From positions 1 to 28,339 of the forward strand of contig CAYRWC010000001.1 in the NCBI GenBank assembly GCA_964427795.1: a stretch of DNA of 28,339 nucleotides, read 5' to 3'. The DNA comes from an uncultured Oscillospiraceae bacterium. GTDB taxonomy: Bacteria; Bacillota; Clostridia; Saccharofermentanales; UBA5734. Below the pieces are notes generated by a model. That model worked only from the letters and a program-made list of their open reading frames with translations. It did no database searches and was not told the DNA's origin. Shown in pieces: positions 6,710-14,624 of this stretch. The number at the start of each line of letters is the position of its first letter. Position 1 is the stretch's first letter. The position numbers and the translations under genes are program-made.

Positions 6710-7858
6710 ATGATCATCGACCGCCAATCCTCGATTCCTATATATCAGCAAATCCAGCATATTCTGGAGCAAGCGGTCTTATCCGGTGAATATCAGGCCG
6801 GCAGTCTGCTGCCGACCGAAGCCGCCTTATGCGGGCAATACGGCATCAGCCGTTATCCGCTTCGTCAGGCTATGGCCAATTTAGTGCGGGCCGGTCTTTT
6901 AGAACGGACACGCGGTAAAGGTACATATGTACGGACAAATAAGCCGAATGAACAATCCACGCAAGCAGAACAACAGCAGAACCAGACAGAAACCAAGTCG
7001 GTAACTGGCGGCAAACCGTTGATTGCTTTGGTCATACCAGGATTACACGGCGATTATCCTCGGGATATAGCCAGCGGATTTTTGCAATCGGCTGCCGCTC
7101 AGGACTTTGCTGCTATCGTTGCAGTCAGCCGCGATAAGGATGAAGAAATCAACTGTTTGGAACGATGTGTCCGGGCCGGTGTCGCCGGCTTGGCCATATT
7201 CCCGCACGATGGGCATGTTGGCGGCATATTAGCCGGCTTTCAGGCGAAAGGCGTATATATCGCTTTGATCGACCGCAGTATTGAGCTGCCGCGGTTTGAT
7301 TTAATTGCGTCGGACAATATCGGCGGCGGTTTTATGGCCGCCCGCCATTTGCATCAGTGCGGTTTTACAAAAGCTGCTTTCATTTCCGACAGCTGGCCGG
7401 TTTCATCGGTTCAGGAACGCTTGCAGGGATTTCGCCGCGGCATGGAGCAGTACGGGCTCAGCTGGCTGAATCCGCTGCCTGCCGGTTGCGAACCGGCGGT
7501 GGATCAGGTCTTTTCATCGGCGCTGTTCATGGAGTATCTGGATTATTGCCGGAATCAGCAGCCTTGGGGGCTTTTTTGTGAGAATGACGGACTGGCGATA
7601 AAAATGATGACTCTGTTGAAAGAACGTAATTTTATCATCGGCAAAGATGTCGGTATCATCGGCTTCGATAATGATTCAGCCGGACGTTACAGTGTCCCGG
7701 GTTTGACGACGATATCCCAAAACGGCTGGCTGATCGGCGACGCCGCCGCCCGGGCGGTCATCGGCCATATAACCGGCGAAGACAGCCCTTTCAGCCGTCA
7801 TATTTTACCGACACAGATAATCATCCGTCAATCATGCGGCGAAAGCGGCATGATTTAG
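6710..7858 (+). CDS. GntR wHTH plus LacI-type sugar-binding domain regulator (AraR-like architecture)
   Basis: N-terminal PIYQQI..LPTE..L..QYGISR..LRQA..LV..G.LER.RGKGT; C-terminal DNIGGG..AA.HL, ND.LA, IIGFDN, LTTI.Q. Confidence 0.93.
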   Translation: MIIDRQSSIPIYQQIQHILEQAVLSGEYQAGSLLPTEAALCGQYGISRYPLRQAMANLVRAGLLERTRGKGTYVRTNKPNEQSTQAEQQQNQTETKSVTGGKPLIALVIPGLHGDYPRDIASGFLQSAAAQDFAAIVAVSRDKDEEINCLERCVRAGVAGLAIFPHDGHVGGILAGFQAKGVYIALIDRSIELPRFDLIASDNIGGGFMAARHLHQCGFTKAAFISDSWPVSSVQERLQGFRRGMEQYGLSWLNPLPAGCEPAVDQVFSSALFMEYLDYCRNQQPWGLFCENDGLAIKMMTLLKERNFIIGKDVGIIGFDNDSAGRYSVPGLTTISQNGWLIGDAAARAVIGHITGEDSPFSRHILPTQIIIRQSCGESGMI

Positions 7859-7923
7859 TGTTAAACTGCGTGATTTTTTTACATCACGGTCAATCAGGAA
7901 CAGAGGAAAGAAAGGATGATGAT

Positions 7924-8934
7924 ATGGCAGATAATAAGCCGGGTAATTTAAATAATCCAAAGCCGTCGGCTCCGCAGACGCCGCGGCGGCGTATGATCGC
8001 CGCGTTGGAAAGACGTCCGGTCGCAGGCCGTGTTCCAACTTTTGAATTGGTCTTTTTCCTGACGATGGAGAAATTCGGCCGGCTGCATCCAAGCCACCGG
8101 TTTTACGGCCAGTGGGACCAGATGTCGAAGCGGGAGCAGCAGCTGCATCGAGACGATATGGCTTCACTTTACATTGAAACGGCGGAAGCGTATGGTCATG
8201 ACGCCATATTTATCCATCCCAATCCCGGTACGAAAATCGAGACCGTCCGTCTGCTGACGCGCATCCGGGAAATGAGCGGCGATCGCTATTTTATCATGAA
8301 GCACGGCGATGCGACTTTTTCCATACCGGACGGCAGCCACATGGTTGATTTTGCTTTCAGAATGGCCGACCAACCGGAACAGCTGCACGCCGAAGCGCGA
8401 AGTCAGGTCGAACAAGCGCTGGCTGATTCGGCAGAGCTGCAAAAAGAAGGATTGCTGGACGGTTTTGCTTTATGTTCCGATTATTGTTTCAATACGGGGC
8501 CGTTTTTGAGCCCGAATCAGTTTGGTGAATTTGTCGCGCCATATCTGGCCCGGCTGATCCAAGGTTATCGCGATCAAGGGTTTTATACAATCAAGCACAC
8601 GGATGGAAACATTATGCCGATCATCGATCAGCTGGTTCAGGCCAATCCTCATGCGCTGCATTCGCTGGACCCGCAGGCCGGTGTCGACATAGCCGAGGTC
8701 AAACGGCTCTACGGCAACAGGATTTGCCTGATCGGCAATGTCAATTGCGGACTTCTGGAAACCGGCACCGATGAGCAAGTCGTCGAATCGGCGCGCTACG
8801 CCTTGCGAAACGGCATGCCGGGGTACGGTTACGTTTTTTCAACCAGCAACTGCGTTTATACCGGCATGCCGCTTGAGCGGTACGACCTGATTATAAAAGT
8901 ACTTAATGAAGAAGGAAGGTACGACAATGATTGA
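7924..8934 (+). CDS. Uroporphyrinogen decarboxylase/MtaA-superfamily TIM-barrel protein (probably not HemE)
   Basis: SDY.FNTGPFLSP..F.EF..PYL, KHTDGN, LHSLDP, LIGNVN, YVFSTSNC. No RQAGR motif of true UroD. The start (7924 vs 7993) is uncertain. Confidence 0.85.
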   Translation: MADNKPGNLNNPKPSAPQTPRRRMIAALERRPVAGRVPTFELVFFLTMEKFGRLHPSHRFYGQWDQMSKREQQLHRDDMASLYIETAEAYGHDAIFIHPNPGTKIETVRLLTRIREMSGDRYFIMKHGDATFSIPDGSHMVDFAFRMADQPEQLHAEARSQVEQALADSAELQKEGLLDGFALCSDYCFNTGPFLSPNQFGEFVAPYLARLIQGYRDQGFYTIKHTDGNIMPIIDQLVQANPHALHSLDPQAGVDIAEVKRLYGNRICLIGNVNCGLLETGTDEQVVESARYALRNGMPGYGYVFSTSNCVYTGMPLERYDLIIKVLNEEGRYDND

Positions 8935-11743
8935 TTTAAATCGGCTAAACCGGATGTCTGACGAATATTTGACGGAATGGAATGAACAATACGCGAAACC
9001 ACAGCGTAATTATTGGGGTCAGCGGACGGTCCTGCAGCTGCGTTACGCCGTTCAGCTGGCCGCCTGCGGCATGGCGCGCGAAGATGACATTGCCGCCGCC
9101 CTGACCGCGGCTTGGACCGATTTTCAGAATCAGGGCGCGATAACCCGCGAAACCTGCGCAACAGTAGAGACTCTGCTCCAACCGCTGGCCGCGGCGGCTA
9201 AATCAATAACGCTTCTTTGCATCGGTCATGCTCATATCGATATGAACTGGATGTGGTCCTATGATGAAACCGTCTCTGTGACACTGGATACTTTCCGCAC
9301 CATGCTTGATCTGATGGATGAGTACCCGGATTTTACTTTCGCCCAATCTCAGGCGTCGGTTTATGAGATCGTCGCGAAACATGATCCGGCCATGCTGGAA
9401 GAAATAAAAAAACGCATCCGCGAAGGCCGTTGGGAAGTGACGGCTTCAACCTGGGTCGAAGCCGACCGCAATATGCCCAGCGCGGAAAGCATGGCCCGGC
9501 ATTTCCTGTATACCCGGCAATATCTGGCCGAATTGCTGTCTATCGATCCGTCGACTCTGGATCTGGATTATGAGCCGGATACCTTTGGCCATCATCAGAA
9601 TGTGCCGGAGGTTCTGGCGGATGCCGGCGTAAAATACTATTATCATTGCCGCGGAGCGGAAGGTCCGCTTCTCTGCCGCTGGCAGGCGCCCTCCGGCCGG
9701 TCGGTTATTTCTTATCGGGAACCGCTTTGGTACAACTGGACCATGGACGGACGCTGCGCTATGATCGCGCCGAAGTTTTGCCGGGATTATGGTCTGAATG
9801 TGGCGCTGCGGGTTTACGGCGTCGGCGATCACGGCGGCGGACCGACCCGGCGCGACTTGGAAAAAATTATCGATATGAGTAGCTGGCCGATTTTTCCGTA
9901 CTATACATTCGGCACTTATCATGAATTTTACCGCGCCGCGGAGCAGATCAAAGAGCAATTGCCTGTCGTATCCGGTGAATTGAATTTTATCTTTGATGGC
10001 TGCTATACAACGCAAACCAGAATCAAACGGGATAACCGGCTGGGTGAAAACAGCCTGTTCGAAGCCGAAGCAGCCGACGCGATCAGTTCGCTGGTTTTAA
10101 AACGACCTTATTCCGGCGCCGACTTCCGGCAGGCTTGGAAAAATATCTTGTTCAACCAATTCCACGACATATTGCCGGGATCGGGGACGGTTGATACCCG
10201 GGAGTATGCCCTGGGTCTGTACCAGCAGGCCTTTGCCCTGACCAACAGCCGGCGGACCGCTGCTTTGCGGGCGGTGGCCGATCAAATCGATTCATCGTCG
10301 CTGACCGTAACGGAAGATATCAGTCTCAGCCGTTCCGAAGGCGCCGGCGTCGGCTTTCCGACCGCCAGCGGCAGCCTGAGCCGTTATAGCCGTCATGCCG
10401 GCCTGCGCCGCCTGTTTATGGTTTGGAATCCGCTGCCCGCCGAACGAACGGAAGCCTGCGAACTGACTATCTGGGACTGGCAGGGCGATGTATCGCGCAT
10501 GCAGTTCCGGGACAGCCGGGGGAATGTGGTACCGCACCAATTGATCGCCGACGGCGTTCATGAATACTGGGGACACCTTTATCAGACTGTCCTGGTTCAG
10601 ACGCGCGTGCCGGCAATCGGATATGAAACACTTGCTTTAAGCGAATTGCCGGCGCAGGAACTGCCGGCGGCCGAAATAGGACCGCGTATCATCAGCGAAC
10701 CGGATTTTACTCTGGAGAACGAGTATTTATCTGTAACCATATCCAGACTGGACGGTACGCTAGTTTCGTTAACCGATAAAGAAACCGGACATGAATATGC
10801 CGATCCGCAGGCGCCGCTATCCATTTTCCGCTTGATTGAAGAAGATCCGCAGCAAGGCATGACCGCCTGGGTCGTAGGTCCTTATAAGAAAATCAGTTCT
10901 CTTCACCAAGGGGTCCGTTTTACCGGCCGTCAGGCCGGTCCGGTCCGCCAGAGCCTGACCTGGACAACCGAATTCGGGAATCAATCCGAACTGACCGTTA
11001 CGCTGTCTTTGAACCGGGGTGAACGCCAGCTTCGCCTGGATATAGCGGTGAAATGGCAGGAAATCGGTTCGGCAAAAACCGGAGTGCCGCAATTGAACCT
11101 GTTGCTGCCGATTCCGTATGCTTGTCCGTATTTTCAATATGACATACCGATGGGTACCATTAATCGGGAGCCGCATCACTTTGATGTGCCTGCAAGTTCG
11201 TACGCCTTCGCGGCCAATCCGTCCGGCCGTTCGCTTATGTTGGTTTCCGACAGCAAATATGGCTTCCGCGGTTCGGAGGATGGTCTGGCCATAACCCTCA
11301 TCCGCTCCAGCTTCGATCCGGATCCCTGGCCGGAGGTCGGCGCCCACCAGATCCGGCTGGCCATCGCTCTGACCGACGGCGGCCGCGATGCCGAACAATT
11401 AGCCCGCGCTTTCTGCCATCCGTTCAGCACCGTAGCCATGCGCAAGCCGCAAACCGGCTGCCTGCCGCTGCATCAATCGCTCTGCAGCCTGATCGACGGT
11501 GAGACTTACTTGTCGGCCGTCAAACTTGCCGAAGATGGAAACGCTCTGACCGTCCGGTTGTATTCCCTGAATGAAAAGACCGTCCGGACGACGCTTCGTT
11601 TCTGGCAGAAACCGCAGAAAGCCGTCCTGACAGATTTAATGGAACAACCGGTTGAAGGAGCCGATCCGGTTCTGATACAGGATAACGACGTGGTTTTCTC
11701 CGTGAAACCTTTCGGCCTGCAAACCGTAAAAATCACTTTCTGA
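8927..11743 (+). CDS. GH38 alpha-mannosidase
   Basis: GHAHID (Zn), TFAQSQA, WVEAD.NMPS.ES, PDTFGH (nucleophile), GVGDHGGG, NQFHDILPGS. Overlaps the upstream stop; SD GGAAGG. Confidence 0.95.
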   Translation: MIDLNRLNRMSDEYLTEWNEQYAKPQRNYWGQRTVLQLRYAVQLAACGMAREDDIAAALTAAWTDFQNQGAITRETCATVETLLQPLAAAAKSITLLCIGHAHIDMNWMWSYDETVSVTLDTFRTMLDLMDEYPDFTFAQSQASVYEIVAKHDPAMLEEIKKRIREGRWEVTASTWVEADRNMPSAESMARHFLYTRQYLAELLSIDPSTLDLDYEPDTFGHHQNVPEVLADAGVKYYYHCRGAEGPLLCRWQAPSGRSVISYREPLWYNWTMDGRCAMIAPKFCRDYGLNVALRVYGVGDHGGGPTRRDLEKIIDMSSWPIFPYYTFGTYHEFYRAAEQIKEQLPVVSGELNFIFDGCYTTQTRIKRDNRLGENSLFEAEAADAISSLVLKRPYSGADFRQAWKNILFNQFHDILPGSGTVDTREYALGLYQQAFALTNSRRTAALRAVADQIDSSSLTVTEDISLSRSEGAGVGFPTASGSLSRYSRHAGLRRLFMVWNPLPAERTEACELTIWDWQGDVSRMQFRDSRGNVVPHQLIADGVHEYWGHLYQTVLVQTRVPAIGYETLALSELPAQELPAAEIGPRIISEPDFTLENEYLSVTISRLDGTLVSLTDKETGHEYADPQAPLSIFRLIEEDPQQGMTAWVVGPYKKISSLHQGVRFTGRQAGPVRQSLTWTTEFGNQSELTVTLSLNRGERQLRLDIAVKWQEIGSAKTGVPQLNLLLPIPYACPYFQYDIPMGTINREPHHFDVPASSYAFAANPSGRSLMLVSDSKYGFRGSEDGLAITLIRSSFDPDPWPEVGAHQIRLAIALTDGGRDAEQLARAFCHPFSTVAMRKPQTGCLPLHQSLCSLIDGETYLSAVKLAEDGNALTVRLYSLNEKTVRTTLRFWQKPQKAVLTDLMEQPVEGADPVLIQDNDVVFSVKPFGLQTVKITF

Positions 11744-11752
11744 ACAGCCGGT

Positions 11753-12415
11753 TTATTGGACCGGTCCGTTTAAACCGAAAGCGGAGAGAGCGCTGCTCAT
11801 CCCTAATCTGTCCGCTCCCGCTTCCACAAGCGCGATAGCCTGTTCAGCTGTCCGGATGCCGCCGGCAGCCTTGACCCGGACGGCTGGACCGACATGCCGC
11901 CGCAGCAGACGCACATCCTCAGCCGTCGCTCCTCCGCCGGCAAAACCGGTTGATGTTTTAATGAAATCTGCAGCAGCGCGTGTGACGAGGCGGCACAAAG
12001 CTATTTTCTGATCATCATTCAGAAGGCAGGCTTCAATGATGACCTTGACGGTGTTTTTACCGGCTAAGGCTTTGATGCCGGCAATTTCGTCATAGACATA
12101 ATCTACGTCGTCCATCAGCATTCTGCCGATGTTGATGACCATATCCAATTCAGCCGCGCCGTCCTCCAGCGCCCGGCCGGCTTCGGCCAGCTTCGTTTCC
12201 TTGCTGTTGTAGCCCAGCGGGAAACCGATGACGGTACATACCGGCACCCTGCCTTGCAGCCGGGCGGCTGCAGCCGCAACATAACAGGGCGGGATGCAGA
12301 CACTGGCAAAACCGTATAGCAGCGCCTCATCGCAGAGCATTGCGATATCCTGCAGGCGGGCGGTCGGTTTCAGCAGCGTATGGTCGATTTTATTGTACAA
12401 AAACGAATAATCCAT
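11753..12415 (-). CDS. deoC: Deoxyribose-phosphate aldolase
   Basis: IDHTLLKP, VCTVIGFPLG, ELDMVINIG, FIKTSTG, VKAAGGIR, GADRLG.S. Confidence 0.97.
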   Translation of the reverse strand: MDYSFLYNKIDHTLLKPTARLQDIAMLCDEALLYGFASVCIPPCYVAAAAARLQGRVPVCTVIGFPLGYNSKETKLAEAGRALEDGAAELDMVINIGRMLMDDVDYVYDEIAGIKALAGKNTVKVIIEACLLNDDQKIALCRLVTRAAADFIKTSTGFAGGGATAEDVRLLRRHVGPAVRVKAAGGIRTAEQAIALVEAGADRLGMSSALSAFGLNGPVQ

Positions 12416-12595
12416 GATGGCTTACCTCACATTTTTTTATGCTTCCATTAACCAGATGTTATCAGTATACGGAATTGCGGCGTCCAAATCCAGCTGCCGC
12501 AATTCCGGATGAAAATACGATTTATGGCAAAGCAAACGGCGGACGTAGATACGGGAATATACGGTTGTACGCGATACATGATCTGTTGCGGCATC

Positions 12596-12625
12596 TTGAC
12601 TTTTGCCAAATTTCCTGTATATACT
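12596..12625 (+). promoter_or_regulatory. SigA promoter TTGACT-18-TATACT driving the T-box leader
   Basis: -35 at 12596-12601, -10 at 12620-12625, immediately before T-box stem I. Confidence 0.6.
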
Positions 12626-12633
12626 GGTGGCAA

Positions 12634-12948
12634 TAAGAGCCATGAAGGGGAGAGTAGACTGACTGATCCTCCTCCAGAGAGTTTCCAAGGCCGGGATATT
12701 CGGCCGCCGCTGCAAGGAAACGCTGGATTAGCAGCCGAACATGACCCCGGAGCTTGACCGGCCGAATCCGCTTTGCGGGTTGAGGTTGATCCGGATGGTG
12801 ACCGTTACAGCATCAGGGTATAAGCCGGACCTTTGGCGGTCGGCCGTACCTGCGAAGGTTCGATTCGCGAGAATCGGATAAAGCGGAGTGGTACCACGGG
12901 ATTATAACCCGTCTCCTGCACATTTGTTGCAGGCGGCGGTTTTTTTTC
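12634..12948 (+). promoter_or_regulatory. T-box riboswitch, Met specifier (AUG)
   Basis: Stem I with GAGAGUAG, AG-bulge GAGA, GCUG, specifier loop GAAC-AUG-ACCCC (AUG at 12741-12743). CCGUUA at 12802. Antiterminator GGAG-UGGUACC-ACGGG..CCCGU-CUCC. Located upstream of metG. Confidence 0.93.
12909..12947 (+). terminator. T-box intrinsic terminator
   Basis: CCGTCTCCTGCA/TGCAGGCGGCGG stem plus 8 T; mutually exclusive with the antiterminator. Confidence 0.88.
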
Positions 12949-12974
12949 GCCGTCCTGATGAGGAGGCGACCTTT

Positions 12975-14624
12975 ATGCAACCTATTTTTATCGGCGGAGC
13001 CTGGCCATATGCCAACGGTTCTCTGCACATCGGCCAGATCGCGGCTTTATTGCCGGGTGATGTTCTGGCGCGATATTTTCGGCAGAAAGGACATCCGGTC
13101 CTATATGTGTCCGGCTCCGACTGCCACGGTACGCCGATTGCCGTCCGAGCGGCACGCGAGAATCGGCAGCCCGGCGAAATCGCATCATTTTACCATCAGG
13201 AATTCACATCGGTTTTCAGCCGTCTGGGTTTTTCCTACGACTGTTATAGCCGGACGGATCAACCGCAGCATGCCGAATTGGTGCAGAACGTCTTCCTGAC
13301 CTTGCTGAAAAAAGGTCTTCTGGAAAAAAAGCCGGTCAGCCAGGTTTATTGCAGTCATTGCCGGCGTTTCCTGCCCGACCGGTATGTTGAAGGCCGGTGT
13401 CCCCGCTGCGGCGCCCAGGCGCGAGGCGATCAATGCGACGCCTGTACCGCCATTCTCGATCCGCAGGACTTGATCGATCCGCACTGCAAATTATGCGGCC
13501 AGCCGACAGTGCTGCGCCGTTCGGATCATTATTTTTTCAGGCTGTCAACCTTTCAGGATGCGCTGACGCATTATCTGGATGAGGTGGAATCCGGCTTCCG
13601 GATTAATGCCCGAAATGAAACCAGACGTTATTTGCAGGAAAACCTGCCCGACCGTGCCGCGACCCGAGATCTGGACTGGGGAATTCCGGTTCCGGTACCC
13701 GGTTTTTCCGGCAAAAGCATCTATGTCTGGATCGACGCCGTATTGGGCTATCTGTCGGCGAGCCGGCATTGGAGCCAGGAAACGGGCTTGGACTGGCGGC
13801 CTTTTTGGACAGAAAACGCTCAAGCCTGGTATGTTCACGGTAAAGATAATATCCCTTTTCACAGCCTGATCCTGCCGGCTTTGCTTGAGGGCTGCGATCC
13901 TGGCCTGAAGAAGCCGGATCATCTGTTGTCTTCCGAATATATGACGCTTGAGGGCCGGAAAATCTCAACCAGTCAAAATTGGGCCATATGGGTTCAGGAT
14001 CTGCTGGATCAGGTTCCGGCTGATTCCATCCGCTATTTTCTGTTATCCAACAATCCGGAAAAACGGGATGCCGATTTCTCTTGGCTTTCTTTTATCAACA
14101 GCCATAACGGCGAACTCCTGGGAGCTCTGGGCAATCTCGTCAACCGTACGCTGCAGTTCATCAAAAAATACCGCGACGGCGTGACCCTCAACGAACCTTG
14201 CGACCCGGCGATCTGGACGGAAATCGCCGCCAGCTACCGCGATTGCGGCGGGCTTCTGGAACAGGGTGAAATTAAAGCTTCGCTGGAGCGCGCTTTCAAG
14301 CTGGTTCGGCAGCTCAACAAATACTTTGACCAGACCAAGCCATGGCTGACCCGCGATGACGATCCCGGCAGCTGCGACCGGGCTCTGGCCACCTGTCTGC
14401 ACGGACTGGCCAATCTGTCTCAGCTGCTGGCGCCGTTCCTGCCTCATACTTGCCGGAAAATCCGACAGGATCTCCAGCTGCCGGAAGAAGTCGGCTGGGA
14501 ACCCGTAATTTGTCCGTGCGGCCGGATCCTCGGTGATATCGCGATCCTCTTTCCTCGTCTTGATGCCGGTAAATTTGGCGGCGATGCGCATTTGTGCGAT
14601 AATAAAGCTGTAGCAGTCAAGTAA
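12975..14624 (+). CDS. metG: Methionyl-tRNA synthetase, MetRS2-type (two Zn knuckles, no C-terminal Trbp/dimerisation domain)
   Basis: GAWPYANGSLHIGQ, SGSDCHGTPI, four CxxC, YVWIDAV.GY, HGKDNIPFHS..LP, EGRKISTS; GGAGG SD; Met T-box upstream. Confidence 0.96.
   Translation: MQPIFIGGAWPYANGSLHIGQIAALLPGDVLARYFRQKGHPVLYVSGSDCHGTPIAVRAARENRQPGEIASFYHQEFTSVFSRLGFSYDCYSRTDQPQHAELVQNVFLTLLKKGLLEKKPVSQVYCSHCRRFLPDRYVEGRCPRCGAQARGDQCDACTAILDPQDLIDPHCKLCGQPTVLRRSDHYFFRLSTFQDALTHYLDEVESGFRINARNETRRYLQENLPDRAATRDLDWGIPVPVPGFSGKSIYVWIDAVLGYLSASRHWSQETGLDWRPFWTENAQAWYVHGKDNIPFHSLILPALLEGCDPGLKKPDHLLSSEYMTLEGRKISTSQNWAIWVQDLLDQVPADSIRYFLLSNNPEKRDADFSWLSFINSHNGELLGALGNLVNRTLQFIKKYRDGVTLNEPCDPAIWTEIAASYRDCGGLLEQGEIKASLERAFKLVRQLNKYFDQTKPWLTRDDDPGSCDRALATCLHGLANLSQLLAPFLPHTCRKIRQDLQLPEEVGWEPVICPCGRILGDIAILFPRLDAGKFGGDAHLCDNKAVAVK

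What the first reader, a model, noticed from the sequence alone, without database searches (positions are those of the whole stretch)
6710..11743. Stand-alone UroD-fold metalloenzyme coupled to a GH38 mannosidase: possible unknown sugar-processing step
The UroD-superfamily gene overlaps the GH38 start, and both follow a sugar-sensing regulator. It lacks the HemE porphyrin-binding RQAGR. It has H-x-D (KHTDG) and a late Cys (SNC) at positions matching the Zn ligands (H-x-C...C) of MtaA/MtbA methyltransferases. No corrinoid protein, activator or heme gene is in the window. Inference: a metal-dependent enzyme acting on a modified mannoside or its aglycone (O-methyl sugar demethylation, decarboxylation, epimerisation). 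The loose precedent is mngR-mngAB mannosylglycerate use. The cluster has no transporter.
Basis: partly seen in the sequence, partly recalled or inferred. Interest (0 to 1): 0.65.

Follow-up and report, generated by a model that had tools for sequence, protein, structure and literature searches.

The report
B12-type methyltransferase beside a mannosidase
A very highly conserved, uncharacterised enzyme with the uroporphyrinogen-decarboxylase fold is translationally coupled to an alpha-mannosidase gene, and it is most likely a vitamin-B12-protein-dependent methyl-removing enzyme whose partner genes lie elsewhere in the genome, possibly acting on methylated sugars without oxygen.

Summary
The three genes are real. 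A GntR-HTH/sugar-binding regulator (6710-7858) is followed by a URO-D-superfamily gene (true start probably 7924, ends 8934) and a GH38 alpha-mannosidase (8927-11743) that overlaps it by 8 nt (ATGATTGA).

"Stand-alone, no corrinoid" holds only for the window. The same genome encodes, dispersed:
- one corrinoid protein;
- one RACo-type activase;
- an MTHFR plus pterin-binding MT II pair;
- DUF1638;
- at least 12 URO-D paralogues.

Orthologues are 65-91% identical across about 13 phyla and single-copy.
- They sit inside corrinoid methyltransferase operons in about 8 of 80 loci.
- They co-occur with RACo in 76 of 80 genomes, against backgrounds of 33% and 57%.
- They sit beside GH38 in 6-10 of 80 loci, in several separate clades.

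The window protein is predicted to dock the genome's only corrinoid protein (ipSAE 0.74; best control 0.01).

Its H-x-D-G-N motif aligns with MtaA's zinc motif H-x-C-G-N. Cys-to-carboxylate is the pattern reported for O-directed UroD-fold methyltransferases.

Best reading: an MT-I-type substrate:corrinoid O-demethylase, possibly for methylated mannose or other sugars. The substrate is inferred only. This scan has flagged the same theme on at least 16 other genomes.

The parts
6710..7858 (+). Transcriptional regulator: GntR-type winged HTH fused to a LacI/RbsR-type periplasmic-binding-protein-like sugar-binding domain
   Evidence: Pfam GntR 70 bits and Peripla_BP_3 103 bits. The NCBIfam partial match to RbsR-type repressors is below cut-off. 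The same architecture recurs next to orthologues in Lentisphaerota, Chloroflexota, Planctomycetota and Bacillota (cluster 9; L119).
7870..7887 (.). Short inverted repeat (GTGAT-N8-ATCAC) in the 65-nt gap between the regulator and the URO-D-like gene; possible operator or weak hairpin
   Evidence: Read directly from the sequence. Not tested. No convincing terminator lies between the genes.
7924..8934 (+). URO-D-superfamily protein of 336 aa: candidate substrate:corrinoid-protein methyltransferase (MT I type) with a His225-x-Asp227 ... Asn309-Cys310 site
   Evidence: Pfam URO-D. NCBIfam best partial hits are MtaA/CmuA, far below cut-off. AF2 model pLDDT 83, pTM 0.85. Foldseek gives HemE 2eja TM 0.71 and MtaA 4ay7 TM 0.68. 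About 7000 homologues, 65-91% identical. Predicted docking to the genome's corrinoid protein.
8927..8934 (+). ATGATTGA overlap: the GH38 start codon lies inside the last codons and stop of the URO-D-like gene (translational coupling)
   Evidence: Sequence. The same 8-nt overlap is called in the syntenic MAG locus L001 (genes 10001-11011 and 11004-13820).
8927..11743 (+). GH38 alpha-mannosidase, 938 aa, no signal peptide evident, closer to the Ams1/cytosolic class than to characterised bacterial GH38s
   Evidence: Pfam Glyco_hydro_38N, Alpha-mann_mid, Glyco_hydro_38C and C2. PDB sequence hits: Ams1 7vqo/6lz1 at E 1e-53 to 1e-49, against S. pyogenes 2wyh at 8e-15. It converges on deoC (11753-12415, minus strand), so the transcription unit ends here.

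Best explanation
The 336-aa protein belongs to an uncharacterised, single-copy, very highly conserved clade of the UroD superfamily. It most likely works as an MT-I-type methyltransferase.

Proposed mechanism:
1. It takes a methyl group from an O-methylated substrate and passes it to the Co(I) form of the genome's single corrinoid protein (contig C115).
2. That carrier is kept active by the single RACo-type ATP-dependent reductive activase (contig C62).
3. The carrier is unloaded by a pterin-binding MT II onto tetrahydrofolate. The MT II gene sits next to an MTHFR gene on contig C512. A homocysteine-methyltransferase-domain protein on contig C7 is an alternative acceptor route.
4. His225 and Asp227, with Asn309 and/or Cys310, occupy the positions of MtaA's zinc ligands. 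They would hold a Lewis-acid metal that polarises the ether oxygen.

In this lineage the gene is translationally coupled to a cytoplasmic GH38 alpha-mannosidase and sits under a sugar-binding regulator. The favoured substrate is therefore a methylated mannose or mannoside. O-methyl-mannose occurs in microalgal, fungal, bacterial and invertebrate glycans. Demethylation would either unblock the glycan for GH38 or make the released sugar metabolisable.

What is shown: the fold, the conservation, the motif equivalence, presence of all partner genes in the genome, recurrent clustering with corrinoid modules and with glycosidases, and the co-occurrence statistics.

What is inferred: corrinoid dependence (about 0.7), the O-methyl direction (about 0.55), and a sugar substrate (about 0.4, with mannose specifically lower).
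For: 1. Superfamily placement. The best family hits are MtaA/CmuA methyltransferases. The best PDB sequence hit is CdmB, a UroD-fold substrate:corrinoid MT I (PMC13222342). Fold matches are HemE and MtaA, TM about 0.7.

2. Motif. W 'IKHTDGNIMPIIDQ' aligns with the own paralogue 'IYHNCGNVVPLIAD'. That paralogue aligns with MtaA 4ay7 'VLHICGNVNPILSD'. Kountz and Balskus (bioRxiv 10.1101/2023.07.31.551370) state that S-directed UroD-fold methyltransferases have His-Cys-Cys, whereas O-directed ones replace Cys by carboxylate or by non-ligands.

3. Orthologues (67-69% identical) lie inside same-strand corrinoid operons.
- L018: Crp, MTHFR-C, MTHFR, pterin MT, corrinoid protein, URO-D, DUF1638, RACo, orthologue, a further UroD-like gene.
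- L061: RACo, HcyMT, DUF1638, orthologue, each with a 4-nt overlap.
- L027 and L060: the orthologue is directly adjacent to the corrinoid protein.
- In G366 RACo ends 9 nt before the orthologue.

4. RACo co-occurrence.
- 47 of 50 orthologue genomes carry RACo.
- Class sample: 11 of 12 against 62 of 188, Fisher p 8e-5.
- A second phylum: 18 of 18 against 59 of 103, p 1e-4.

5. The own genome holds all the partners: corrinoid protein with DxHxxG, RACo, MTHFR plus an MT II whose best PDB match is the D. hafniense O-demethylase MT II 4o0q, and HcyMT and DUF1638.

6. Complex prediction with the own corrinoid protein.
- Score 0.74, best of 3 controls 0.01.
- The mark was reached by 58 of 80 solved complexes and 2 of 110 mismatched pairs.
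- Runs agree in at least 95% of contacts; partner pLDDT is at least 84.
- The interface uses invariant residues of both families.
- This may partly reflect likeness to solved methyltransferase-corrinoid protein complexes.

7. Sugar link.
- One of five GH families lies within 26 of 80 orthologue loci, against 1 of 40 RACo-centred control loci from the same genomes.
- GH38 lies within 10 of 80 loci against 0 of 40, and is immediately adjacent in six loci.
- The adjacent cases fall in at least four separate clades of the tree.
- Close homologues of this GH38 elsewhere sit beside other UroD-like paralogues in 4 of 20 loci.
- O-methylated mannose in natural glycans: PMC12507850.
Against: - About 90% of orthologue loci show no corrinoid gene within 10 kb, and no single neighbour is conserved.
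- The canonical zinc triad is incomplete. Cys310 is one column off the ligand position and is not conserved in the wider H-x-D clade. No metal site could be inspected in 3D.
- RACo is common anyway in these anaerobes (33-57% background), and related genomes are not independent, so the co-occurrence p-values overstate the case.
- 65-70% identity between phyla is unusually high for substrate-specific MT I enzymes. It would fit a shared housekeeping component better.
- The GH seeds for one search were chosen from the orthologue loci, which biases that comparison.
- The GH38 coupling seen here is limited to this lineage (L001/L005). In the next relative the regulator directly precedes the GH38 (L169).
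- Cleavage of an alkyl methyl ether by Co(I) is chemically harder than cleavage of an aryl methyl ether, and it has no characterised precedent in this fold.
- No paper links this clade to any activity.
Confidence: 0.5

Rival explanations
1. Corrinoid-independent sugar-processing enzyme. A His/Asp(/Cys) metal site in a TIM barrel acts directly on a modified mannoside or its product, for example as a hydrolase, isomerase or decarboxylase. The links to corrinoid genes would then reflect shared anaerobic lifestyle and paralogue-rich genomes.
For: - Most orthologue loci (about 72 of 80) lack corrinoid genes nearby but often carry GH, kinase, oxidoreductase or sugar-regulator genes.
- The MtaA zinc triad is not conserved.
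- The family scores far below every curated methyltransferase cut-off.
Against: - Tight, overlapping operons with RACo, corrinoid protein, DUF1638 and pterin MT occur in several phyla.
- RACo co-occurrence is 76 of 80.
- The docking prediction with the corrinoid protein passes.
- No UroD-fold enzyme with such a sugar chemistry is known.
Confidence: 0.2
2. A shared, housekeeping-like component of a corrinoid methyl-transfer network rather than a substrate-specific MT I. Examples would be a methyl-corrinoid:acceptor (MT II-like) enzyme or a part of a split methionine-synthase-type system (HcyMT, corrinoid protein, RACo, DUF1638). The GH38 adjacency would be incidental operon packing.
For: - The gene is single-copy and 65-91% identical across phyla, with variable context typical of housekeeping genes.
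- L061 and L029 place it with RACo, HcyMT and DUF1638.
- The own genome has only one B12-binding_2 hit and hence no canonical MetH found.
Against: - It is present in only 12 of 200 and 18 of 121 sampled genomes, although RACo is far commoner.
- A pterin-binding MT II exists separately, both in the own genome and in L018.
- Its neighbourhood is enriched in glycosidases relative to RACo neighbourhoods.
- A sugar-binding regulator recurs beside it.
- Translational coupling to GH38 is shared with the relative L001.
Confidence: 0.15
3. Corrinoid-dependent O-demethylase whose substrate is a non-sugar methoxy compound. This could be a methoxylated aromatic aglycone set free by glycosidases, or free methanol-like donors, rather than a methylated sugar.
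For: - All characterised O-directed UroD-fold MT I enzymes act on aryl methyl ethers or halomethanes (PMC13222342).
- GH78 rhamnosidase and GH2 neighbours are enzymes that also deglycosylate plant phenolic glycosides (my own knowledge).
Against: - GH38, GH20, ROK and PfkB neighbours point to glycan and mannose catabolism, not to phenolic glycosides.
- The family occurs in Omnitrophota, Ratteibacteria and hot-spring lineages, where plant phenolics are unlikely substrates.
- Sequence identity to CdmB is marginal.
Confidence: 0.1
4. A divergent uroporphyrinogen decarboxylase (HemE) or other tetrapyrrole-side-chain decarboxylase.
For: Pfam URO-D match. The top Foldseek hit is A. aeolicus HemE.
Against: - TIGR01464 scores 19.7 bits against a cut-off of 303.
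- Only the C-terminal half matches URO-D.
- No haem genes appear in any examined locus.
- The gene lies in a sugar operon.
Confidence: 0.02

Closest known systems
UroD-fold substrate:corrinoid-protein methyltransferases (MT I) of anaerobic demethylase and dehalogenase systems: CdmB (PDB 9rui), OdmB/VdmB, MtvB, MtoB
   Same: - TIM-barrel UroD fold.
- Best PDB sequence hit is CdmB (E 9e-5).
- The genome has the same four-part kit: MT I candidates, corrinoid protein, pterin MT II (best PDB match the D. hafniense O-demethylase MT II 4o0q) and a RACo-type activase. The activase is single-copy and unlinked, as reported for Acetobacterium (my knowledge of Schilhabel et al. 2009).
- Cys ligands are replaced, as in O-directed members.
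   Different: - Similarity covers only about 115 residues at low identity.
- There is no corrinoid gene in the operon.
- It is coupled to a glycosidase and a sugar regulator.
- The clade is far more conserved (65-91% between phyla) than known MT I families.
- The substrate is unknown. If it is a sugar, it would be an alkyl rather than an aryl methyl ether.
MtaA/MtbA/MtsA methylcobamide:coenzyme M methyltransferases (TIGR01463; M. mazei MtaA, PDB 4ay7)
   Same: Same fold (TM 0.68). Shared motif H-x-[C/D]-G-N-[IV]-x-P-[IL] and the (L/M)SP motif. Both are expected to dock a corrinoid protein.
   Different: The zinc triad His-Cys-Cys becomes His-Asp-Asn(Cys+1). The family score is 44 bits against a cut-off of 235. 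The organism is not a methanogen, and there is no CoM context.
Type 1 mlp gene clusters (Kountz and Balskus, bioRxiv 2023.07.31.551370)
   Same: [quoted passage not shown] They are widespread in anaerobes.
   Different: Mlps keep His-Cys-Cys and are tied to S/Se-methyl metabolism. This clade has His-Asp, sits with sugar genes, and is usually not clustered with its carrier.
HemE, uroporphyrinogen III decarboxylase (TIGR01464)
   Same: Same fold and the same Pfam family.
   Different: It fails the equivalog model by a wide margin, there is no haem context, and the N-terminal half is not recognised by the Pfam model.
Cytochrome P450-dependent 6-O-methyl-D-galactose demethylase of marine Bacteroidota (aerobic; recalled from Reisky et al. 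2018, not checked here)
   Same: It would solve the same biological problem: removing an O-methyl group that blocks sugar catabolism, from a gene encoded beside glycosidases.
   Different: It is oxygen-dependent, with an unrelated fold and chemistry. The present system would be the anaerobic, cobalamin-dependent counterpart.

Membership tests
Pfam URO-D (PF01208) / UroD superfamily | Profile score above the gathering cut-off, and a UroD-type (beta/alpha)8 fold | tested here: met
   68.5 bits against a cut-off of 23.9, residues 220-357 only. Foldseek TM 0.68-0.71 to HemE and MtaA structures.
HemE (TIGR01464 equivalog) | Full-length match above the curated cut-off | tested here: not met
   19.7 bits against a cut-off of 302.95.
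HemE | Haem or tetrapyrrole pathway context | tested here: not met
   No haem genes in the window or in orthologue loci. The genome-wide haem pathway was not searched.
MtaA/CmuA methyltransferases (TIGR01463, NF040654, NF004889) | Score above the curated cut-off | tested here: not met
   44.3 against 235.4; 30.1 against 400; 49.5 against 244. Only about 110 residues are matched.
MtaA/CmuA methyltransferases | Zinc ligands His-x-Cys ... Cys | tested here: not met
   His225 is kept. Cys1 becomes Asp227. The Cys2 column is Asn309, with an invariant Cys310 one residue later.
Corrinoid-dependent three/four-component demethylase systems (MT I + corrinoid protein + MT II + activase) | Corrinoid protein, reductive activase and methyl-corrinoid:THF MT II encoded in the same genome | tested here: met
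   Corrinoid protein at C115:3713-4360 with DxHxxG. RACo at C62:5599-7461. MT II on C512 beside MTHFR.
Corrinoid-dependent demethylase systems | Orthologues clustered with corrinoid protein or activase genes | tested here: inconclusive
   About 8 of 80 loci, some with 4-nt gene overlaps, in Chloroflexota, Planctomycetota, Verrucomicrobiota and Aerophobetes. The rest are unlinked.
Corrinoid-dependent demethylase systems | Physical interaction of MT I with the corrinoid protein | tested here: inconclusive
   Prediction only: ipSAE 0.74 against a best control of 0.01. The mark was reached by 58 of 80 solved complexes and 2 of 110 mismatched pairs. Contacts agree at 95% or more, and partner pLDDT is at least 84.
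Corrinoid-dependent demethylase systems | Substrate-dependent methylation of the Co(I) corrinoid protein | not testable with these tools
   Needs an anaerobic enzyme assay.
Type 1 MGC Mlp1/2/3 | [quoted passage not shown] | tested here: not met
   The site is His-Asp-Asn/Cys, and the window holds no such neighbours (definition).
GH38 alpha-mannosidase (neighbour gene) | N-terminal catalytic, middle and C-terminal GH38 domains | tested here: met
   PF01074 162.6 bits, PF09261 56.1, PF07748 72.6, PF17677 39.3.
MngB mannosylglycerate hydrolase (NF007331) | Equivalog score | tested here: not met
   74.4 bits against a cut-off of 1138.

The most novel reading that the evidence does not exclude
This clade is the first anaerobic, cobalamin-protein-dependent O-methyl-sugar demethylase. 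It would be a UroD-fold MT I that cleaves an alkyl methyl ether on mannose or a related hexose and hands the methyl group, through a shared corrinoid protein, to tetrahydrofolate. That would let saccharolytic anaerobes in a dozen phyla digest O-methylated glycans (microalgal N-glycans, bacterial and fungal polysaccharides) and harvest their methyl groups as C1 units.
Probability: 0.3. Interest if true: 0.8.

Novelty: new variant of a known kind. Interest (0 to 1): 0.55.

Why it matters
O-methylated sugars are widespread in algal, fungal, bacterial and invertebrate glycans. The only demethylation route I know of is oxygen-dependent (P450; recalled from the literature, not checked here), and four of my literature searches that touched on sugars found no paper on an anaerobic route.

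A conserved UroD-fold family tied both to glycosidases and to the corrinoid methyl-transfer machinery would fill that gap. It would extend corrinoid methyltransferase chemistry to alkyl methyl ethers. It would also add a methyl-group source to the C1 budget of anoxic habitats.

In practical terms, the family is a single, very conserved protein of about 317 aa. Its partner proteins are identifiable in the same genome, so the hypothesis can be tested directly in vitro.

Tried and rejected
- **Universal neighbour.** All-against-all clustering of ORFs from 80 loci, plus a Pfam tally of 115 operon partners, found no conserved neighbour.
- **Literature.** Searches linking UroD or corrinoid to GH38, sugars or methylated sugars returned nothing relevant.
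- **Sister clades.** Look-ups of P0127 and P0128 gave contigs too short to be informative.
- **Direct alignment to MtaA.** The profile search of PDB with alignment A1 did not reach MtaA, so the equivalence was established through a paralogue.
- **Promoter and terminator scan.** Counts were at chance level and give no evidence for or against co-transcription.
- **Split-methionine-synthase idea (orthologue as the CH3-THF-binding part).** I considered it and down-weighted it after finding separate pterin-binding MT II genes in the own genome and in L018.
- **mngAB analogy.** Rejected on the NCBIfam score.
- **Tree.** The careful tree search did not finish, so only the quick tree is used.

Full report
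**Observation**

The window carries, on the plus strand, three genes:
- a GntR-HTH/periplasmic-binding-protein-type regulator (6710-7858);
- a URO-D-superfamily ORF (7834-8934);
- a four-domain GH38 alpha-mannosidase (8906-11743).

The unit ends against a convergent deoC gene.

The URO-D gene most likely starts at ATG 7924.
- This start matches the 336-aa, 91%-identical homologue of a Clostridiaceae MAG whose locus is syntenic over 20 kb.
- More distant homologues start about 17 residues further in.

GH38 most likely starts at ATG 8927, behind GAAGGAAGG. This gives the overlap ATGATTGA with the URO-D stop.

**What the URO-D-like protein is not**

- It fails the HemE equivalog model (19.7 against 303 bits).
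- It fails all MtaA/CmuA models (at most 49.5 bits against cut-offs of 235 or more).
- Pfam recognises only its C-terminal half.

**What it resembles**

The AF2 model (pLDDT 83, pTM 0.85) is a UroD barrel, equally close to HemE and to M. mazei MtaA (TM about 0.7). The only significant PDB sequence hit is CdmB, a UroD-fold chloromethane:corrinoid-protein methyltransferase (PMC13222342).

**The family**

About 7000 clusters match, and the best 120 are all 67-91% identical and about 317 aa long.

Genome contigs holding orthologues at 65-91% identity come from the following groups:
- Bacillota, Chloroflexota, Armatimonadota, Planctomycetota;
- Verrucomicrobiota, Lentisphaerota, Kiritimatiellota, Calditrichota;
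- Omnitrophota, Ratteibacteria, Calescamantes, Sumerlaeota, Aerophobetes.

At 50% clustering the clade collapses to essentially one representative, with sister clades at 40-50% identity.

More than a third of positions are invariant in a 24-sequence sample. Invariant motifs include FELVF, HPNP, HGD, FALCxDYCxNxGPF, IKHTDGNIMP, HSxDPQ, GNVNC and STSNC.

The gene is single-copy wherever it was found.

A quick tree shows the following:
- The Bacillota copies, including the window's, fall in one clade.
- Other phyla are partly interleaved.

**Active-site motif**

A MAFFT alignment with the genome's own paralogues and with distant representatives puts 'IKHTDGNIMPIIDQ' on 'IYHNCGNVVPLIAD' of the canonical paralogue on contig C88. 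HMMER aligns that paralogue to 'VLHICGNVNPILSD' of MtaA 4ay7, and its 'LSSGCDIP' to MtaA 'LAPGCGIA'.

This gives the following equivalences:
- His225 and Asp227 take the places of the first two zinc ligands.
- Asn309 takes the place of the third.
- The invariant Cys310 follows by one residue.

H-[ST]-D-G is shared by a very large radiation of UroD-like proteins. Cys310 is specific to the tight clade.

Kountz and Balskus report His-Cys-Cys for S-directed UroD-fold methyltransferases. For O-directed ones they report replacement of Cys by carboxylates or non-ligands.

**Corrinoid link**

The window has no corrinoid gene, but the genome (90% complete, 553 contigs) has the following:

| Component | Location |
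|---|---|
| Corrinoid protein with DxHxxG, behind a PocR-AraC regulator | C115:3713-4360 |
| RACo-type activase | C62 |
| MTHFR followed by a pterin-binding methyltransferase (best PDB match the D. hafniense O-demethylase MT II 4o0q) | C512 |
| Homocysteine-methyltransferase-domain protein | C7 |
| DUF1638 | C352 |
| Twelve Pfam URO-D matches | dispersed |
| Two members of a Pfam-invisible UroD-like family | C42, C223 |

Among 80 orthologue loci, about eight place the orthologue itself inside same-strand corrinoid modules:
- L018 reads Crp, MTHFR-C, MTHFR, pterin MT, corrinoid protein, URO-D, DUF1638, RACo, orthologue, UroD-like.
- L061 reads RACo, HcyMT, DUF1638, orthologue, with 4-nt overlaps.
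- L027 and L060 place it next to the corrinoid protein.

RACo co-occurrence:

| Sample | With orthologue | Without orthologue | Fisher p |
|---|---|---|---|
| Orthologue-bearing genomes | 47 of 50 | not sampled | - |
| 200-genome class sample | 11 of 12 | 62 of 188 | 8e-5 |
| 121-genome sample of another phylum | 18 of 18 | 59 of 103 | 1e-4 |

Relatedness of the genomes inflates these p-values.

A complex prediction with the genome's own corrinoid protein passed:
- Score 0.74; best of 3 controls 0.01.
- The mark was reached by 58 of 80 solved complexes and 2 of 110 mismatched pairs.
- Runs agree in at least 95% of contacts; partner pLDDT is at least 84.
- The interface is built from invariant segments 140-148 and 192-199 of the enzyme and the conserved VPxxLIAARAM helix of the carrier.

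This supports a retained docking surface. It does not show binding, and it may lean on likeness to solved complexes.

**Sugar link**

No neighbour is universal.

GH38 is immediately adjacent to the orthologue in six loci:
- this lineage (two loci);
- two Thermoflexus loci;
- an Akkermansiaceae bin;
- a Kiritimatiellota bin.

It lies nearby in others, and these cases fall in at least four separate clades.

Other recurrent neighbours:
- GH2, GH78, GH20 and GH31;
- ROK and PfkB kinases;
- GFO/IDH/MocA and aldo-keto reductases;
- AraC, LacI or GntR-PBP regulators.

One of five GH families lies within 26 of 80 orthologue loci, against 1 of 40 RACo-centred control loci from the same genomes. The families were picked from the orthologue loci, so this comparison is biased upward.

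Almost all these genomes have several GH38 genes (48 of 50). Adjacency is therefore enriched but not obligatory.

Of 20 loci centred on the closest homologues of this GH38, four carry other UroD-like paralogues next to the GH38. In the nearest relative outside the genus, the same regulator directly precedes the GH38. The insertion of this gene into the regulator-GH38 unit is therefore lineage-specific, while the superfamily-level association of UroD-like genes with GH38 is recurrent.

**Interpretation**

The simplest account of all this is an MT-I-type, O-directed, corrinoid-protein-dependent methyltransferase. It would share the genome's single carrier, activase and MT II with the other UroD-like paralogues. 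This is the arrangement known for Acetobacterium O-demethylases, where the activase is unlinked.

Coupling to a cytoplasmic GH38 under a sugar-binding regulator points to a methylated mannoside or mannose. O-methyl-mannose is documented in microalgal N-glycans and in other organisms (PMC12507850).

Corrinoid dependence is moderately well supported. The substrate is inference only.

The very high conservation remains unexplained. It keeps alive the rival that this is a shared component rather than a substrate-specific enzyme.

**Relation to earlier notes of this scan**

After forming this reading I found that the scan has flagged UroD/MtaA-fold genes in sugar loci on at least 16 other genomes. 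Several follow-ups proposed B12-dependent sugar demethylation. Those are unchecked AI notes and are not counted as evidence here.

What this report adds for this clade:
- the motif chain to MtaA;
- the RACo co-occurrence counts with backgrounds;
- the complete dispersed partner set in the same genome;
- the L018 and L061 operons;
- the docking prediction.

**Verdict**

This is an uncharacterised variant within the corrinoid-methyltransferase branch of the UroD superfamily. Interest is moderate (0.55).

Noticed in passing
window 8927-11743: The GH38 is much closer in sequence to the fungal Ams1/cytosolic alpha-mannosidase class (PDB 7vqo, 6lz1, 7ufs; E 1e-53 to 1e-48) than to the characterised bacterial GH38s (2wyh 8e-15, 3lvt 2e-13). 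It also has an N-terminal extension of about 95 aa before the catalytic domain.
   Followed up: partly
L018:10773-11870, L027:3885-5111, L061:5319-6305; own genome C42:3881-4957 and C223:3454-4554: A family of about 360 aa with no Pfam hit sits directly downstream of the orthologue, with a 4-nt overlap in L018. Profile comparison shows it to be another very divergent UroD-like protein with a YHxDG motif (hhalign probability 65%).
   Followed up: partly
genomes G034, G251, G261, G344 (phylum sample): Some genomes of the second phylum sampled give 50-69 first-look candidates for the UroD-like query. This suggests very large paralogue expansions of this superfamily in saccharolytic anaerobes.
   Followed up: no
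L030:44-1189, L033:4372-6333, L034:8102-9988: In Omnitrophota, Ratteibacteria and Brocadiaceae bins a large DUF6785/DUF6784 protein sits directly upstream of the orthologue on the same strand. In some of these loci a pyruvate:ferredoxin oxidoreductase gamma-type gene lies downstream. It might be a transporter for the unknown substrate.
   Followed up: no
L026, L035, L037, L055, L066: A conserved block is shared by five unclassified MAGs: HSP20, ClpB, orthologue, amidohydrolase_2, GH78 rhamnosidase, endonuclease V, DUF192, PfkB kinase. The chaperone pair next to the orthologue is unexplained.
   Followed up: no
own genome C115:2344-4360; C62:5599-8102; C512:1-1698: The genome's single corrinoid protein follows a PocR-sensor/AraC regulator. 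The single RACo activase overlaps a 5-formyl-THF cyclo-ligase gene. MTHFR is followed by the pterin-binding MT II. The methyl-transfer kit is thus split into at least five unlinked units.
   Followed up: partly
L169 (G002:C514:1-2696): In the Bacillota MAG with the closest non-congeneric GH38 (64% identity), a 53%-identical GntR-PBP regulator ends 45 nt before the GH38 start with no UroD-like gene between. The orthologue of that genome lies elsewhere, in L006.
   Followed up: partly
control loci L122-L161: RACo genes in these genomes are often next to a pterin-binding methyltransferase (15 of 40), a corrinoid protein (6 of 40) or MTHFR (5 of 40). This fits roles in THF-linked methyl transfer or in reactivation of split methionine synthase.
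   Followed up: no
window 7870-7887: A small inverted repeat, GTGAT-N8-ATCAC, lies in the regulator/UroD intergenic gap.
   Followed up: no
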